64,000 nucleotides of DNA, taken from NCBI RefSeq assembly GCF_057098645.1, contig NZ_CM169472.1, one strand, 5' to 3'. Positions 47,541 to 57,997 of this stretch are shown in pieces; the first letter of the stretch is position 1, and each line of letters begins with the position of its first letter. The notes under the pieces were generated by a model that made no database searches, was not told where the DNA came from, and saw only the letters and a program-made list of their open reading frames with translations. Made by a program: the position numbers and the translations under genes.

Positions 47541-48203
47541 ATGGAACTTTTGACCCAATTGCTGCAAGCCCTGTGGGCGCAGGATTTTGAAACCCTGGCC
47601 AATCCATCGATGATTGGCATGTTGTATTTTGTCTTGTTTGTAATTTTGTTCCTTGAAAACGGCTTGCTTCCGGCGGCCTTTTTACCGGGCGACAGTTTAC
47701 TGGTATTGGTCGGCGTGTTGATTGCGAAAGGGGCGATGGGCTATCCGCAAACGATTCTGCTGCTGACCGTTGCCGCCAGCCTCGGCTGCTGGGTCAGCTA
47801 TATTCAGGGGCGATGGCTGGGCAATACCCGCACCGTACAAAACTGGCTATCTCATTTACCCGCGCATTATCATCAACGCGCACACCATCTTTTTCATAAA
47901 CACGGTTTATCGGCGCTGTTAATTGGTCGCTTTATTGCGTTTGTCAGAACACTGCTGCCGACGATTGCCGGGTTATCAGGGCTGAATAACGCGCGCTTTC
48001 AGTTTTTCAACTGGATGAGCGGTCTGCTGTGGGTATTGATCCTGACAACTCTGGGTTACATGCTCGGCAAAACGCCGGTATTTTTAAAGTACGAGGACCA
48101 GCTGATGTCATGCCTGATGCTGCTCCCGGTGGTGCTGCTGGTTTTTGGCCTGGCAGGTTCTCTGGTCGTGTTATGGAAAAAGAAATATGGAAATCGGGGG
48201 TAA
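47541..48203 (+). CDS. yqjA: DedA-family inner membrane protein
   Basis: 220-aa ORF with DedA/SNARE-associated motif region. Confidence 0.85.
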
Positions 48204-48206
48204 GGG

Positions 48207-48590
48207 ATGCAAATACCTCGCATGTCGCTTCGCCAGCTAGCCTGGTCCGGCGCTGTTTTACTTCTGGTCGGCACGCTGTTGCTGGCCTGGTCCGCGGTTC
48301 GCCAGCAAGAGTCTACGCTGGCGATTCGTGCCGTTCATCAAGGCACAACGATGCCAGACGGTTTTTCAATCTGGCATCACCTTGACGCTCATGGCATTCC
48401 TTTCAAAAGTATCACCCCCAAAAACGACACTCTGTTAATTACCTTTGACTCCAGCGACCAGAGCGCCGCTGCAAAAGCGGTCCTCGACAGAACATTGCCC
48501 CAAGGCTACATCATTGCGCAGCAGGACAATAACAGTCAGGCTATGCAGTGGCTGACCCGGCTACGGGATAACTCTCATCGCTTCGGATAA
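48207..48590 (+). CDS. mzrA: Modulator of EnvZ/OmpR
   Basis: 127-aa ORF with single N-terminal TM helix, 4 nt after the yqjA stop. Confidence 0.8.
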
Positions 48591-48736
48591 CTTCCTGTTA
48601 TCCGAAACAGATCACTCACTTTGGTGATTTCACCGTAACTGTCTATGATTAATGAGGCGGTGGTTAACACTACCGCTTCGTTGTCTGGACAATCGTTCCT
48701 TTGTAATAGGTCCGAATCACAATGGAAGGTTCAAGA

Positions 48737-49105
48737 ATGAAATACCGCATCGCTTTAGCTGTTTCTCTTTTTGCTCTTAGTGCCGGTAGTTATGCCACTA
48801 CCCTGTGTCAGGAAAAGGAGCAAAATATCCTTAAGGAGATCAGCTATGCCGAAAAACACCAAAACCAGAATCGTATTGACGGTCTGAATAAAGCCCTGAG
48901 TGAAGTCCGGGCCAACTGTTCAGATAGCCAGCTGCGTGCCGATCATCAGAAGAAAATCGCAAAGCAGAAAGATGAGGTGGCGGAACGCCAGCAAGATTTA
49001 GCCGAGGCGAAGCAAAAAGGCGATGCCGATAAGATTGCCAAACGCGAACGGAAACTGGCAGAAGCGCAGGAAGAGCTGAAAAAGCTGGAAGCGCGCGACT
49101 ACTAA
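48737..49105 (+). CDS. yqjC: DUF1090 periplasmic protein
   Basis: ORF-track 48722..49105; signal peptide MKYRIALAVSLFALSAGSYA, coiled-coil rich. Confidence 0.8.
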   Translation: MKYRIALAVSLFALSAGSYATTLCQEKEQNILKEISYAEKHQNQNRIDGLNKALSEVRANCSDSQLRADHQKKIAKQKDEVAERQQDLAEAKQKGDADKIAKRERKLAEAQEELKKLEARDY

Positions 49106-49142
49106 CTCACAATAGTCACTACTTACTCACCTGGAGAAAACT

Positions 49143-49448
49143 ATGTCGAAAGAACACACTACGGAACATCTGCGTGCTGAGTTGAAATCCCTTTCCGATA
49201 CGCTGGAAGAGGTGCTTAGCTCATCTGGCGAGAAGTCGAAAGAAGAGTTGAGTAAGATTCGTAGCAAAGCGGAGCAGGCACTGAAACAGAGCCGTTATCG
49301 CCTGGGTGAAACCGGTGATGCCATCGCCAAACAAACCCGTGTCGCGGCGGCGCGTGCCGATGAGTATGTGCGTGAAAATCCATGGACGGGCGTGGGCATT
49401 GGCGCTGCAATCGGTGTAGTGCTCGGCGTTCTGCTGTCGCGTCGTTAA
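49143..49448 (+). CDS. yqjD: Ribosome-associated membrane-anchored protein (ElaB/YqjD family, DUF883)
   Basis: 101-aa ORF with C-terminal TM anchor. Confidence 0.8.
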   Translation: MSKEHTTEHLRAELKSLSDTLEEVLSSSGEKSKEELSKIRSKAEQALKQSRYRLGETGDAIAKQTRVAAARADEYVRENPWTGVGIGAAIGVVLGVLLSRR

Positions 49449-49450
49449 TT

Positions 49451-49855
49451 ATGGCGGACACTCATCACGCGCAAGGGCCCGGTAAAAGCGTTCTGGGCAT
49501 CGGGCAGCGAATTGTTTCCATCATGGTTGAAATGGTGGAAACACGTCTGCGGCTGGCGGTGGTGGAGCTGGAAGAGGAAAAAGCTAATCTCTTTCAACTT
49601 TTACTGATGCTGGGCCTGACGATGCTTTTCGCTGCATTTGGTCTTATGAGCCTGATGGTGCTAATTATTTGGGCGGTTGATCCGCAATATCGCCTGAATG
49701 CGATGATTGCCACCACCGTGGTGTTGCTGCTACTGGCACTGATTGGCGGTATCTGGACGTTACGTAAATCGCGTAAATCCACCTTGCTGCGCCATACACG
49801 CCATGAGCTGGCAAACGATCGGCAGCTGCTCGAGGAGGAGTCCCGTGAGCAGTAA
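49451..49855 (+). CDS. yqjE: Inner membrane protein (DUF1469)
   Basis: ORF-track 49382..49855; ATG at 49451 directly after the yqjD stop. Confidence 0.8.
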   Translation: MADTHHAQGPGKSVLGIGQRIVSIMVEMVETRLRLAVVELEEEKANLFQLLLMLGLTMLFAAFGLMSLMVLIIWAVDPQYRLNAMIATTVVLLLLALIGGIWTLRKSRKSTLLRHTRHELANDRQLLEEESREQ

Positions 49856-50144
49856 AGTCGAACGTGAACGACGTAAGGCGCAACTGCTTAGCCAGATCCA
49901 GCAACAACGGCTGGATCTTTCTGCCAGTCGTCGTGAATGGCTGGAGGCAACAGGCGCTTACGATCGTCGCTGGAATATGCTGCTCAGTCTGCGCTCCTGG
50001 GCGCTGGTTGGCAGTAGCGTGATGGCGATCTGGACGATTCGCCATCCTAATATGCTGGTCCGCTGGGCCAGACGCGGTTTTGGCGTATGGAGCGCATGGC
50101 GTCTGGTTAAAACGACCCTCAAGCAGCAACAGCTTCGCGGTTAA
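49845..50144 (+). CDS. yqjK: Small protein, uncharacterised
   Basis: GTG start at 49845 preceded by GAGGAGGAG; overlaps the yqjE 3' end. Confidence 0.7.
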   Translation: MSSKVERERRKAQLLSQIQQQRLDLSASRREWLEATGAYDRRWNMLLSLRSWALVGSSVMAIWTIRHPNMLVRWARRGFGVWSAWRLVKTTLKQQQLRG

Positions 50145-50326
50145 CTTCCCTCTGGCCGGAGCCATTCCGGCCTTACCCATCAAATTTTTTGAAGATTTTT
50201 GACAGTTTTCCTTGCTAACAATCATCATTCACCACGTTTATGATTCTCTCCATCGACAGCAACGACGCTAATACTGCGCCCTTGCACAAAAAAACAATCA
50301 GCAGCCTGAGTGGCGCAGTGGAGAGT

Positions 50327-50722
50327 ATGATGAAAAAATTAGAAGATGCTGGTGTACTGGTAGCGCGCATTTTAATGCCGATTCTGTTTATTACCGCAGG
50401 CTGGGGAAAAATTACTGGTTACGCGGGTACCCAACAATATATGGAAGCGATGGGCGTCCCGGGTTTTATGCTGCCGCTGGTGATTCTGCTTGAGTTTGGT
50501 GGTGGTCTGGCAATCCTGTTCGGTTTCCTGACTCGCACCACTGCCCTGTTTACTGCGGGCTTTACGCTGCTGACAGCATTTTTATTTCACAGCAACTTTG
50601 CTGAAGGCGTTAACTCGCTGATGTTCATGAAAAACCTGACAATTTCTGGCGGATTCTTGCTGCTGGCAATTACCGGTCCGGGCGCGTATAGCATCGACCG
50701 CCTGCTGAATAAAAAGTGGTAA
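50327..50722 (+). CDS. yqjF: DoxX-family inner membrane protein
   Basis: ORF-track 50240..50722; likely start MMKKLEDAGVLVARILMPILF. Confidence 0.8.
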   Translation: MMKKLEDAGVLVARILMPILFITAGWGKITGYAGTQQYMEAMGVPGFMLPLVILLEFGGGLAILFGFLTRTTALFTAGFTLLTAFLFHSNFAEGVNSLMFMKNLTISGGFLLLAITGPGAYSIDRLLNKKW

Positions 50723-50791
50723 GCACGCGCTATACTTAATGATAAAAAACGAGGAGGAAGCTCCTCGTTTTTGCTATTGGAGGAGAGAAAA

Positions 50792-51780
50792 ATGGGTCAA
50801 CTGATTGACGGCGTCTGGCATGACACCTGGTACGATACCAAATCTACCGGCGGTAAATTTCAACGTTCAGCTTCCGCATTTCGTAACTGGCTCACTGCCG
50901 ATGGCGCTCCTGGCCCCACTGGCACAGGCGGTTTTATCGCAGAGAAAGATCGTTATCATCTCTATGTTTCACTCGCCTGCCCGTGGGCGCACCGCACGCT
51001 GATCATGCGCAAACTCAAAGGACTGGAACCGTTTATTTCCGTTTCCGTAGTGAACCCGCTGATGCTGGAAAACGGCTGGACCTTTGATGACAGTTTTCCG
51101 GGAGCAACCGGAGATACGCTCTATCAACATGAATTTCTGTATCAGCTTTATCTCCACGCCGATCCACACTACAGCGGACGAGTTACTGTTCCCGTACTGT
51201 GGGACAAAAAGAACCACACCATCGTCAGCAACGAATCAGCAGAAATCATCCGCATGTTTAATACCGCGTTTGATGCGCTGGGCGCGAAAGCGGGTGATTA
51301 CTACCCACCAGCCCTGCAAACGAAAATTGACGAACTTAAAACGGCTGGATTTATGACACCGTTAACAACGGCGTGTATAAAGCCGGTTTTGCCACCAGCC
51401 AGCAAGCCTACGCCGAGGCGGTGGAAAAAGTGTTTGAATCGCTGGCGCGACTGGAACAGATTTTAGGTCAGCATCGTTACCTGACCGGCAACCAGCTAAC
51501 CGAAGCCGATATTCGCCTGTGGACCACGCTGGTCCGTTTTGATCCAGTGTATGTGACCCACTTCAAGTGTGATAAGCACCGCATCAGCGATTACCTGAAT
51601 CTGTATGGCTTCCTGCGCGATATCTACCAGATGCCGGGAATTGCCGAAACAGTCAATTTCGATCACATCCGTAATCATTACTTCCGCAGCCATAAGACCA
51701 TCAACCCTACGGGGATTATTTCAATTGGTCCGTGGCAGGATCTCGATGAACCGCATGGACGAGATGTTCGCTTCAGTTAA
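50792..51780 (+). pseudogene. yqjG: Glutathionyl-hydroquinone reductase (Xi-class GST) interrupted by a +2 frameshift
   Basis: Two overlapping ORFs (50771..51466 and 51373..51780) in different frames together cover one GST-like protein; in-frame lengths sum to 328 aa; frames swap at CTTAAAACGG near 51338. Confidence 0.7.
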
Positions 51781-51834
51781 AAAAAGGTACCTTACGAGGT
51801 GCCTCTGATAATTAGCTAAGTGCATGTTGTTCAT

Positions 51835-51935
51835 GTCGGATGCGGCGTGAACGCCTTATCAAACCTACAAAACATTTATATTCAATATGTTGCAAAGGCC
51901 GCGTAGGCCAGATAAGCGTAGCGCATCTGGCAATT
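51835..51935. repeat. REP/BIME cluster
   Basis: GTCGGATGCGGCGTGAACGCCTTATC...GGCCGCGTAGGCCAGATAAGCGTAGCGCATCTGGC. Confidence 0.75.
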
Positions 51936-52062
51936 TTGCGCTTGCCCTTATCCTTCACAGCTCCTTATTAATTCATCGCGATAATATTTACTGCCATTTC
52001 ATTCACGTCTATTCTTAATTTGCTGCTTTAAAAACAAGTGATTGAGCAAAATTGAGGCAAAA

Positions 52063-52380
52063 ATGGACTGGTATCTGAAAGTACTAAAAAATTATGTCGG
52101 TTTCCGGGGTCGTGCGCGGCGCAAAGAGTACTGGATGTTTATTCTGGTCAACATCATCTTTACGTTCGTGCTGGGGCTGCTGGATAAAATGTTAGGCTGG
52201 CAACGCGCTGGTGGCGAAGGCATCCTGACGACAATCTACGGTATTCTGGTGTTTTTACCGTGGTGGGCACTGCTATTCTTAATCCCGTTTATCGGCTGGC
52301 TTATTATCATCGTCTTTAACTGCCAGGCGGGTACGCCAGGCGAAAACCGCTTTGGACCTGATCCAAAACTGGAACCTTAA
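52063..52380 (+). CDS. yhaH: DUF805 inner membrane protein
   Basis: ORF-track 52042..52380; MDWYLKVLKNYVGFRGRARRKEYWMF. Confidence 0.8.
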   Translation: MDWYLKVLKNYVGFRGRARRKEYWMFILVNIIFTFVLGLLDKMLGWQRAGGEGILTTIYGILVFLPWWALLFLIPFIGWLIIIVFNCQAGTPGENRFGPDPKLEP

Positions 52381-52622
52381 AACAAATCTGCTCGCCGGAT
52401 GTCTGACTCATCCGGCTTTTATCATCATGTTGATGAATGAATAATTTACTAATGTTTATTTAAAATATTTCAATGTCGTTATATAAATTACCTATAAAAA
52501 AATAACCATGTATTTATCTTAAATATCAAAACCTTTATAACATCCAAAAAAGAAAGATACGAATAGCATTTACACAATACCCGGAATAGACTTTCGTCAC
52601 TTTTAATTAAAGGGATGTTTTT

Positions 52623-52979
52623 ATGCAGTGGTATTTATCCGTATTAAAAAATTATGTTGGTTTCTCTGGTCGCGCACGTCGTAAAGAGTACTGGATGTTT
52701 ACTCTGATTAACGCCATCGTCGGCGCTATTATCAATGTCATTCAATTGATTTTAGGTCTGGAGCTTCCATATCTGTCTATGCTTTATTTGCTGGCAACCT
52801 TCCTTCCCGTCCTTGCGCTTGCTATCCGTCGCTTACACGATACCGACCGTTCAGGTGCCTGGGCCTTGCTCTTTTTTGTTCCGTTTATTGGTTGGCTCGT
52901 GCTTCTGGTTTTTTTCTGCACAGAAGGTACTTCTGGCAGCAATCGTTACGGAAACGATCCGAAGTTTGGTTCAAATTAA
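52623..52979 (+). CDS. yhaI: DUF805 inner membrane protein, paralog of yhaH
   Basis: MQWYLSVLKNYVGFSGRARRKEYWMF, same N-terminal module as yhaH. Confidence 0.8.
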   Translation: MQWYLSVLKNYVGFSGRARRKEYWMFTLINAIVGAIINVIQLILGLELPYLSMLYLLATFLPVLALAIRRLHDTDRSGAWALLFFVPFIGWLVLLVFFCTEGTSGSNRYGNDPKFGSN

Positions 52980-53029
52980 TCTTAGAATTGGGGCGATATT
53001 TCGCCCCTTTTTATTAACAATAATAAATA

Positions 53030-53926
53030 TTATTTTCCGTTAAAAAGTTTGGGAATTTCCCGCAGACACCAGGATTTCGCTTCCCCCATACTGTCACGAC
53101 GCCAGGCCATAATAATATCGATCTCGCTGGTCGATTCCGGGCTGACGACACGCAACCGCCCTTCCGCAATATCTTTTTCGACCATCGGATACGGCATCGT
53201 CGCCACGCCAAGCCCCGCCAGTAATGCCTGACGTTTATCTTCAATCGTGCTCACCGTTAAGCGCGGCTGTTTGTCCAGCAGCTGTACAGTCAACACCGGG
53301 CGCTCACGAGCGGTATCCGCCACCGCAATTCCACGATATTTCACACGCGTCACTTCAGATAACGGTTCCGGCTCCTGATGAATCGGGTGATCAGGCGCGG
53401 CAACGTAGACGTTCATTAACGTATAGAGCTTGCGCGAGTTGATCTCCGACGAGGAACGAAAATGCATATCCGGCGCGATAACAATATCCGCCCGCCCCTG
53501 CTCCAGCCGTTCCCACGCCCCCGCCAGCACTTCTGTGATGATTGCCAGTTGGGTATTGGCTTTTGCCGCCAGTTTGTCGATTAACGGGAAAAAGGCAGGT
53601 GTCGGTACCAGCGCTTCGGTCACAATGGTGAGATGCGTTTCCCAACCGCGCGCGAGAGCTTCCGCATCAGTAGTCAGTTTATCTGCGGCTTCCAGCAAAA
53701 CGCGCCCTCGCTCCAACAACATCCTCCCGACATTGGTGAATTTGGTGCGATGGCCCGAGCGGTCAAACAGCACCACATCCAGCTCTTCTTCCAGTTTTTG
53801 CATGGTGTAGCTAAGTGCGGAAGGCACGCGTCCCAGCTCATCCGCTGCCGCCGCAAAACTGCCCCGGCGATCGATCGCATCCATAACCCGTAGTGCTTCC
53901 AGCGTTAATGCCCTTTCTTTGGCCAT
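53030..53926 (-). CDS. yhaJ: LysR-family transcriptional regulator
   Basis: 298-aa ORF with N-terminal HTH; divergent from yhaK. Confidence 0.85.
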   Translation of the reverse strand: MAKERALTLEALRVMDAIDRRGSFAAAADELGRVPSALSYTMQKLEEELDVVLFDRSGHRTKFTNVGRMLLERGRVLLEAADKLTTDAEALARGWETHLTIVTEALVPTPAFFPLIDKLAAKANTQLAIITEVLAGAWERLEQGRADIVIAPDMHFRSSSEINSRKLYTLMNVYVAAPDHPIHQEPEPLSEVTRVKYRGIAVADTARERPVLTVQLLDKQPRLTVSTIEDKRQALLAGLGVATMPYPMVEKDIAEGRLRVVSPESTSEIDIIMAWRRDSMGEAKSWCLREIPKLFNGK

Positions 53927-54030
53927 TTCGTTCTCATTCAGGAAATTTGAACATACCGGGCAGAATATCTGGCTAACAATGTAGCGTCCAGCCCCTTACC
54001 ATAAAAGGAAGTAAAGAGAGGTCAAGAATT

Positions 54031-54732
54031 ATGATTACTACCCGAACTGCCAGGCAGTGTGGACAAGCAGACTACGGATGGTTGCAGGCCCGGTATACTT
54101 TTTCCTTTGGACACTACTTCGACCCGAAATTGTTAGGCTATGCCTCCCTGCGTGTGCTTAACCAGGAAGTGCTGGCCCCAGGTGCCGCCTTTCAGCCGCG
54201 AACCTATCCCAAAGTCGATATTTTAAATGTGATTCTGGATGGAGAAGCAGAGTATCGCGACAGCGAAGGCAATCATGTTCAGGCCAGCGCCGGTGAGGCG
54301 TTGCTGCTCTCTACCCAGCCGGGTGTCAGCTACAGCGAACACAATCTCAGCAAAGACAAACCGTTAACACGAATGCAGCTTTGGCTGGACGCCTGCCCGC
54401 AGCGAGAGAATCCGCTGATTCAAAAACTGGCGCTTAATATGGGCAAGCAGCAATTAATCGCCTCGCCAGAGGGTGCGATGGGAAGCCTGCAATTACGCCA
54501 GCAAGTGTGGCTGCACCATATCGTGCTCGACAAAGGCGAAAGTGCGAATTTCCAGTTGCATGGGCCACGCGCGTATTTGCAATCGATTCACGGGAAATTT
54601 CATGCGCTTACGCATCATGAAGAGAAAGCGGCGCTGACCTGCGGTGATGGGGCGTTTATTCGTGACGAGGCTAACATTACGCTGGTTGCCGATTCCCCAC
54701 TGCGCGCTTTGCTGATAGATTTGCCTGTCTAG
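54031..54732 (+). CDS. yhaK: Pirin-like bicupin protein
   Basis: 233-aa ORF. Confidence 0.8.
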   Translation: MITTRTARQCGQADYGWLQARYTFSFGHYFDPKLLGYASLRVLNQEVLAPGAAFQPRTYPKVDILNVILDGEAEYRDSEGNHVQASAGEALLLSTQPGVSYSEHNLSKDKPLTRMQLWLDACPQRENPLIQKLALNMGKQQLIASPEGAMGSLQLRQQVWLHHIVLDKGESANFQLHGPRAYLQSIHGKFHALTHHEEKAALTCGDGAFIRDEANITLVADSPLRALLIDLPV

Positions 54733-57722: not shown

Positions 57723-57997
57723 AATTTCTCGCTCAATATTTTGTAGGGCTTATTATTTTTTTCCGAGCCGCATCAAGGCGATATGCGGTCTACGTTTTTG
57801 CAGGCGAGTTATTAGAATAAAGAAATGATACGCGCGAGGTCAGAGAAAATCTTCACAATCAAGACTTTGAAATAACGGAGATGGATAAGAATTTTCTACT
57901 AAATTAATCGCAAGAGAATATTCATTCTCTATTTGCGGCAGATCACAAAAAAAAAGGTGCACATTTGTGCACCCAAGGATGAAAGCTGACAGCAATG

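What the first reader, a model, noticed from the sequence alone, without database searches (positions are those of the whole stretch)
51330..51348. yqjG appears frameshifted by two extra A residues
The ORFs 50771..51466 and 51373..51780 overlap by 94 nt in different frames and together cover one Xi-class GST-like protein. Homology continues in the first frame to ...TKIDEL, then resumes in the other frame at NGWIYDTVNNGVYKAGF. The switch point is CTTAAAACGG, where CTTAACGG would keep the frame. The in-frame segments sum to exactly 328 aa, the length I recall for YqjG. This is either a genuine inactivating mutation or a homopolymer sequencing error; the locus should be treated as a pseudogene until checked.
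Basis: partly seen in the sequence, partly recalled or inferred. Interest (0 to 1): 0.45.

Follow-up and report, generated by a model that had tools for sequence, protein, structure and literature searches.

The report
Real frameshift pseudogene of E. coli yqjG
Two extra A bases break the E. coli detoxification gene yqjG in this strain; the same break turns up in other public assemblies of the same clone, so it is a real but ordinary lineage-specific gene loss rather than a sequencing mistake.

Summary
The window is E. coli chromosome, almost identical to O145:H28 strains (14 SNPs in 64 kb against RM12761). Within yqjG it differs from those strains only by two extra A's: CTTAACGG becomes CTTAAAACGG, with the A-run at 51338..51341. 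None of 5,426 complete RefSeq E. coli genomes carries a 28-mer spanning the A4 form, while 5,363 match the A2 form.

The frameshift comes after codon 182. The product is 224 aa: 182 native residues plus a 42-residue nonsense tail, ending at the TAG at 51464..51466. It keeps the catalytic Cys63 (CPWA motif). It loses the whole helical C-terminal domain, including the Xi-class tyrosine triad (Y195, Y253, Y296) and the dimer interface.

That exact 224-aa product is already in public data. It sits on 16 contigs, from NCBI assembly GCA_015672775.1 and from Logan assemblies of sequencing runs. One of these contigs matches the window over 6.7 kb with no gaps. The change is therefore a genuine, clonally inherited mutation, not a homopolymer error.

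No slippery site or usable restart was found that would rescue the protein. A different lineage carries an independent nonsense mutation (W185 to stop) three codons downstream, so yqjG loss recurs. This is an ordinary pseudogene of low interest.

The parts
50792..51780 (+). yqjG pseudogene as a whole: 989 bp, the 987-bp reference CDS plus 2 inserted bases
   Evidence: the matching interval in O145:H28 genomes is annotated yqjG, glutathionyl-hydroquinone reductase, 987 bp; the only difference inside the gene is +AA.
50779..50785 (+). Shine-Dalgarno-like GGAGGAG, 6 nt upstream of the yqjG ATG
   Evidence: Read directly from the sequence.
50792..51466 (+). The reading frame actually translated: 224 aa, made of 182 native YqjG residues (GST_N_2 domain, Cys63 codon at 50978..50980) plus a 42-residue out-of-frame tail, ending at TAG 51464..51466
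   Evidence: translation; Pfam GST_N_2 at residues 62-158; the exact product is found in public assemblies.
51338..51341 (+). A4 run holding the 2-base insertion (AA duplication). Every reference allele has A2 here.
   Evidence: alignment; 0 of 5,426 genomes with A4; 5,363 genomes with A2.
51340..51780 (+). Stranded 3' part of yqjG: 146 codons plus stop, residues 183-328. It encodes the helical GST_C domain and the tyrosine triad (Y195 at 51376..51378, Y253 at 51550..51552, Y296 at 51679..51681). The frame is closed upstream by TAA at 51337..51339.
   Evidence: translation, residue positions; GST_C_2 at residues 203-259; role of the triad and of the C-terminal domain in dimerisation.

Best explanation
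yqjG in this strain is a genuine, recently arisen, clonally inherited pseudogene. A 2-base duplication (AA to AAAA) after codon 182 shifts the frame. The ribosome then makes a 224-residue protein: the N-terminal thioredoxin-like domain with the catalytic Cys63/CPWA motif, followed by 42 nonsense residues. The whole helical C-terminal domain is not made as part of that protein. That domain supplies the three active-site tyrosines (Y195, Y253, Y296) and the Xi-class dimer interface. Loss of glutathionyl-hydroquinone reductase activity is inferred from this, not measured. What is shown here: the insertion, its absence from all complete reference genomes, its presence in other assemblies of the same clone, and which residues are lost. 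What is inferred: loss of enzyme activity, and origin by replication slippage or duplication.
For:: +AA is the only difference in yqjG against O145:H28 RM12761, and the window differs from that strain by only 14 SNPs in 64 kb; 0 of 5,426 complete E. coli genomes hold a 28-mer spanning A4, and 5,363 hold the A2 form, so A2 is ancestral; the exact 224-aa product lies on 16 public contigs (NCBI GCA_015672775.1, where the tool reports the same contig in 10 samples, and Logan run assemblies such as ERR12122442). L004 equals window 47792..54466 with 1 SNP and no gaps, including the A4 run, the yhaH deletion and the A7 run. L005 also carries A4 but differs elsewhere, so more than one data set shows it; the domain map and the positions of Cys63 and Y195/Y253/Y296 relative to the break; the tyrosine triad and C-terminal dimerisation are defining functional features of Xi-class GSTs, established for E. 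coli YqjG; an independent W185 stop allele (TGG to TGA) occurs in another lineage, on at least 24 contigs, so the gene is dispensable in nature.
Against: No raw reads were inspected. Some Logan contigs may be re-assemblies of the same read sets that underlie the NCBI assemblies, so the number of truly independent isolates is unknown. No expression or enzyme data exist for this allele.
Confidence: 0.9

Rival explanations
1. Sequencing or assembly error: the strain really has A2 and an intact yqjG.
For: The two other small indels against RM12761 are also in A-runs: A6 to A7 at 52496 and A8 to A9 at 57947. That is the pattern homopolymer errors produce.
Against: The same frameshift product is on 16 contigs from NCBI and Logan assemblies. 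L004 reproduces both A4 and the A7 at 52496. A +2 error in a run of only two A's is not a usual error mode of any platform (own knowledge). The other two A-run changes are in long intergenic runs, which are naturally hypervariable.
Confidence: 0.04
2. Programmed recoding: a -1 or +2 ribosomal frameshift, or transcriptional slippage at the A-run, restores full-length YqjG.
For: The break sits in an A-run, and A-runs can be slippery. tRNA-Lys on AAA (51338-40) could re-pair at +1 on AAA (51339-41).
Against: A +1 shift enters the third frame, which stops after 5 codons (CGG CTG GAT TTA TGA). Restoring the frame needs -1 or +2, and there is no X XXY YYZ heptamer in frame (GAA CTT AAA ACG). A -1 slip of tRNA-Lys would have to pair with UAA. 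Four A's are far shorter than the runs of about 9 that give transcriptional slippage (own knowledge). All 5,363 matching genomes have the plain A2 form, so no recoding signal has had time to evolve.
Confidence: 0.01
3. Split gene: the N-terminal fragment and a separately initiated C-terminal fragment are both made and assemble into an active enzyme.
For: Gene callers predict a second ORF (GTG 51430, 116 aa) with a weak GAGG 10 nt upstream, and GTG 51373 gives 135 aa.
Against: The only start that keeps Y195 is GTG 51373, and it has no Shine-Dalgarno sequence. There is no ATG before 51631. The first fragment carries 42 nonsense residues. Residues 183-193 would be missing from both pieces. The lesion is very young (absent from the closest relatives), so there has been no time for adaptation to a split state.
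Confidence: 0.02

Closest known systems
E. coli K-12 YqjG (UniProt P42620; PDB 3R3E, 4G0I, 4G0K, 4G0L), a Xi-class glutathione transferase and S-glutathionyl-hydroquinone reductase
   Same: With the two A's removed, the window encodes a 328-aa protein that aligns to it without gaps over residues 1-327 (E = 9e-231). There are four substitutions in that stretch. It has the same neighbours, yqjF upstream and yhaH downstream, the CPWA motif with Cys63, and Y195/Y253/Y296.
   Different: Here the frame breaks after residue 182, so the encoded product is 224 aa and lacks the C-terminal domain.
Intact yqjG of E. coli O145:H28 strains (for example RM12761, WP_000531199.1)
   Same: Identical DNA across the gene apart from the insertion, and identical flanks.
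   Different: Two fewer A's and an intact 987-bp CDS.
Independent natural yqjG null allele W185 stop (P0011, 184 aa; L006-L008)
   Same: A truncation within three codons of the same place, also leaving only the N-terminal domain.
   Different: A nonsense substitution (TGG to TGA) rather than a frameshift. It is in a lineage whose yhaH is intact (121 aa), so it arose separately.

Membership tests
Xi-class GST / glutathionyl-hydroquinone reductase (YqjG orthologue) | Strictly conserved CPWA motif with the catalytic cysteine | tested here: met
   SLACPWAHR with Cys63, codon at 50978..50980, upstream of the break. Motif definition from PMC6345682.
Xi-class GST / glutathionyl-hydroquinone reductase (YqjG orthologue) | Tyrosine triad of the H-site carried on the same polypeptide | tested here: not met
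   The codons for Y195, Y253 and Y296 are present in the DNA but lie downstream of the frameshift, out of frame with the start. The ancestral gene qualifies; the encoded 224-aa product does not.
Xi-class GST / glutathionyl-hydroquinone reductase (YqjG orthologue) | GST N-terminal thioredoxin-like domain plus helical C-terminal domain, collinear with solved YqjG | tested here: met
Xi-class GST / glutathionyl-hydroquinone reductase (YqjG orthologue) | Conserved chromosomal position (yqjF-yqjG-yhaH) | tested here: met
Xi-class GST / glutathionyl-hydroquinone reductase (YqjG orthologue) | GS-hydroquinone reductase activity | not testable with these tools
   Needs an enzyme assay. Predicted to be absent.
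Genuine (non-artefactual) pseudogene | Reading frame disrupted relative to intact orthologues in close relatives | tested here: met
Genuine (non-artefactual) pseudogene | Lesion reproduced in independent sequence data | tested here: met
   16 contigs from NCBI and Logan carry the exact product, and L004 and L005 were confirmed at the DNA level. Raw reads were not seen.
Genuine (non-artefactual) pseudogene | No recoding or restart path to a functional product | tested here: met
   Three-frame translation and a survey of start codons. This rests on sequence reasoning only.

The most novel reading that the evidence does not exclude
The yqjG frameshift is one of three disruptive lesions within this 64-kb window that separate this clone from its O145:H28-like relatives. 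The other two are IS2 inserted in the toxin gene higB and a 16-residue in-frame deletion that removes the RRLHD stretch of YhaH. Together they might mark a sublineage undergoing accelerated gene decay, or yqjG loss might be selected, given the independent W185 stop allele in another lineage.
Probability: 0.1. Interest if true: 0.3.

Novelty: already known. Interest (0 to 1): 0.1.

Why it matters
It matters mainly for annotation. In this strain the locus should be annotated as a yqjG pseudogene, not as two GST-like genes, and the lesion should not be corrected as an assembly error. The +AA allele could serve as a marker for this sublineage of O145:H28-like E. coli, because it is absent from all 5,426 complete RefSeq genomes. 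Biologically, the strain is predicted to lack its only Xi-class glutathionyl-hydroquinone reductase. From the literature on yqjG mutants (Lam et al. 2012, cited from memory; reference listed in PMC4138524) this would be expected to reduce tolerance to benzoquinones. That effect is modest and conditional.

Tried and rejected
NCBIfam HMMs gave no hit for the repaired protein or for either fragment, so that library was uninformative and Pfam and PDB were used instead. A full-text search for the assembly and run accessions (JADACB, GCA_015672775, ERR12122442) returned only irrelevant papers, so the strain or study behind the clone was not identified. A 91-bp megablast could not by itself separate A4 alleles from A2 alleles and missed about 1,000 genomes because of flanking SNPs. 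It was replaced by the 41-mer and 39-mer word test. My first translation started one base off and was redone. Recoding and split-gene readings were considered and rejected on sequence grounds. Scans of the metagenome and species-representative genome collections were not run, because the exact-protein look-up had already answered the question of whether the allele is real.

Full report
**1. What is in the sequence**

Window 50600..51900 holds a GGAGGAG ribosome-binding site at 50779..50785, followed by an ATG at 50792. The ORF list gives 50771..51466 (231 aa from an upstream TTG) and 51373..51780 (135 aa from GTG). They are on the same strand, in different frames, and overlap by 94 nt.

The frame that starts at 50792 reads native YqjG sequence up to ...TKIDEL, with the Leu182 codon at 51335..51337. 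It then runs through 42 unrelated residues to a TAG at 51464..51466, giving 224 aa in all. The other frame is closed by a TAA at 51337..51339. It reads NGWIYDTVNNGVYKAGF... from 51340 to the stop at 51778..51780, which is 146 codons.

The two segments sum to 182 + 146 = 328 aa.

**2. Identity of the gene**

The joined 328-aa sequence matches solved E. coli YqjG (3R3E, 4G0I, 4G0K, 4G0L; 328 aa) over residues 1-327 without a gap, E = 9e-231, with four substitutions. Pfam places GST_N_2 at residues 62-158 and GST_C_2 at 203-259.

The DNA hits the annotated yqjG (glutathionyl-hydroquinone reductase) in 5,421 of 5,426 complete RefSeq E. coli genomes. The gene lies between yqjF and yhaH.

**3. What exactly differs**

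The closest complete genomes are O145:H28 strains. A base-by-base comparison of the whole window with RM12761 (NZ_CP007133.1) gives these differences:
- 14 substitutions.
- A 1,331-bp insertion.
- A 48-bp deletion.
- Three small insertions.

Inside yqjG the only difference is two extra A's at 51338-51339: CTTAACGG becomes CTTAAAACGG. The lesion is therefore a +2 insertion, formally an AA duplication, on an otherwise identical allele.

**4. Real mutation or error**

Two lines of evidence bear on this.

(a) Polarity and rarity. A 41-mer centred on the A4 run was searched by megablast. Any 28-base seed in that query must span the run. It found no match in 5,426 genomes. The 39-mer with A2 matched 5,363 genomes. 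A2 is therefore ancestral and essentially universal.

(b) Reproducibility.
- The exact 224-aa frameshift product is in the public protein collection, from NCBI and Logan sources.
- It is encoded on 16 contigs. These include JADACB010000020.1 of GCA_015672775.1 (181 kb, which the tool reports as shared by 10 samples) and Logan assemblies of individual runs such as ERR12122442.
- L004 equals window 47792..54466 with one SNP and no gaps. It shares the A4 run, the yhaH deletion and the A7 run at 52496.
- L005 also carries A4 but differs by two single-base deletions in yqjE.

Several data sets from closely related but not identical genomes therefore show the same lesion. I did not see raw reads, and some Logan contigs may derive from the same reads as the NCBI assemblies. 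That is the residual uncertainty. A +2 error in a two-base run is also not a usual platform artefact (own knowledge).

**5. Consequence for the protein**

Xi-class GSTs are defined by three features (PMC6345682; PMC5063366):
- A strictly conserved CPWA motif with the catalytic cysteine.
- A triad of tyrosines that shapes the H-site, shown in E. coli YqjG to be needed for substrate binding.
- A dimerisation mode through the helical C-terminal domain.

In this sequence Cys63/CPWA lies before the break, while Y195, Y253 and Y296 all lie after it. The encoded product keeps the thioredoxin-like domain and loses the whole helical domain, the triad and the dimer interface. I infer a null allele for glutathionyl-hydroquinone reductase activity; this was not measured.

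**6. Rescue routes considered**

- A +1 slip of tRNA-Lys on AAA-A is plausible chemically. However, it enters the third frame, which stops five codons later.
- Restoring the frame needs a -1 or +2 shift. No X XXY YYZ heptamer is in frame.
- Four A's are too few for transcriptional slippage (own knowledge).
- Downstream starts in the YqjG frame are GTG 51373 (no Shine-Dalgarno sequence), GTG 51421, GTG 51430 (weak GAGG upstream; this is the 116-aa ORF called in public assemblies), and no ATG until 51631. Only the first would keep Y195, and none would give residues 183-193.

A functional split enzyme is therefore unlikely.

**7. Context**

yqjG is evidently dispensable in nature. Another allele, P0011 (184 aa), occurs on at least 24 contigs that also carry an intact 121-aa yhaH. 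It has TGG changed to TGA at Trp185, three codons downstream of this frameshift. That is an independent inactivation in a different lineage.

Other short forms in the same 90% cluster (202, 207 and 243 aa) may be further truncations. I did not check whether they are artefacts of contig ends.

**8. Verdict**

This is a genuine, recent, clone-specific frameshift pseudogene of a well-characterised gene. It is useful for correct annotation and as a lineage marker, but it is not surprising. Interest is low.

**9. Things seen in passing**

- IS2 (99.6% identical to annotated copies) sits at 32654..33984 with a CCTAG target duplication. It interrupts the toxin gene higB at about codon 26 of 104.
- yhaH has a 48-bp in-frame deletion between two copies of CGTGGTGGGCA. 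It removes VQFRRLHDTDRSAWWA. The same junction occurs in only 4 of 5,426 complete genomes, from unrelated strains, so the deletion recurs.
- Two intergenic A-runs are one base longer than in RM12761, at 52496 and 57947.

Noticed in passing
window 32654..33984 (target duplication CCTAG at 32649..32653 and 33985..33989): A 1,331-bp IS2 element, 99.6% identical to annotated IS2 copies, is inserted in the type II toxin gene higB (minus strand, about codon 26 of 104). It is absent at this site in O145:H28 RM12761. The antitoxin gene higA next to it is untouched.
   Followed up: partly
window 52063..52380 (yhaH); deletion junction near 52259..52269: A 48-bp in-frame deletion lies between two copies of CGTGGTGGGCA. 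It removes VQFRRLHDTDRSAWWA from the DUF805 protein YhaH, leaving 105 aa instead of 121. The same junction is found in only 4 of 5,426 complete genomes, from unrelated strains (O55:H7 DEC5D, F11, VG35A2), so it is a recurrent repeat-mediated deletion. It is shared by the public contig L004.
   Followed up: partly
window 52496 and 57947: Two intergenic A-runs are one base longer than in RM12761: A6 to A7 between yhaH and yhaI, and A8 to A9 between cyuP and tdcG. The first is confirmed in the independent contig L004.
   Followed up: partly
L006-L008, position about 2053 (equivalent to window about 51348): An independent yqjG null allele occurs in other E. coli assemblies: TGG to TGA at Trp185, giving a 184-aa product on at least 24 contigs that carry an intact yhaH. 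Other short YqjG forms (202, 207 and 243 aa) in the same protein cluster were not checked.
   Followed up: partly
L005 1686 and 1705 (equivalent to window 49475 and 49495, yqjE): The Logan assembly of ERR12122442 has two single-G deletions 20 bp apart in yqjE that the window lacks. It is unclear whether these are real or assembly errors.
   Followed up: no
window 29963..31654 (fadH): Five of the 14 substitutions against RM12761 cluster in fadH, including an adjacent TG/CA pair at 29963-29964. They may be specific to RM12761 or a small recombination patch. They were not polarised.
   Followed up: no
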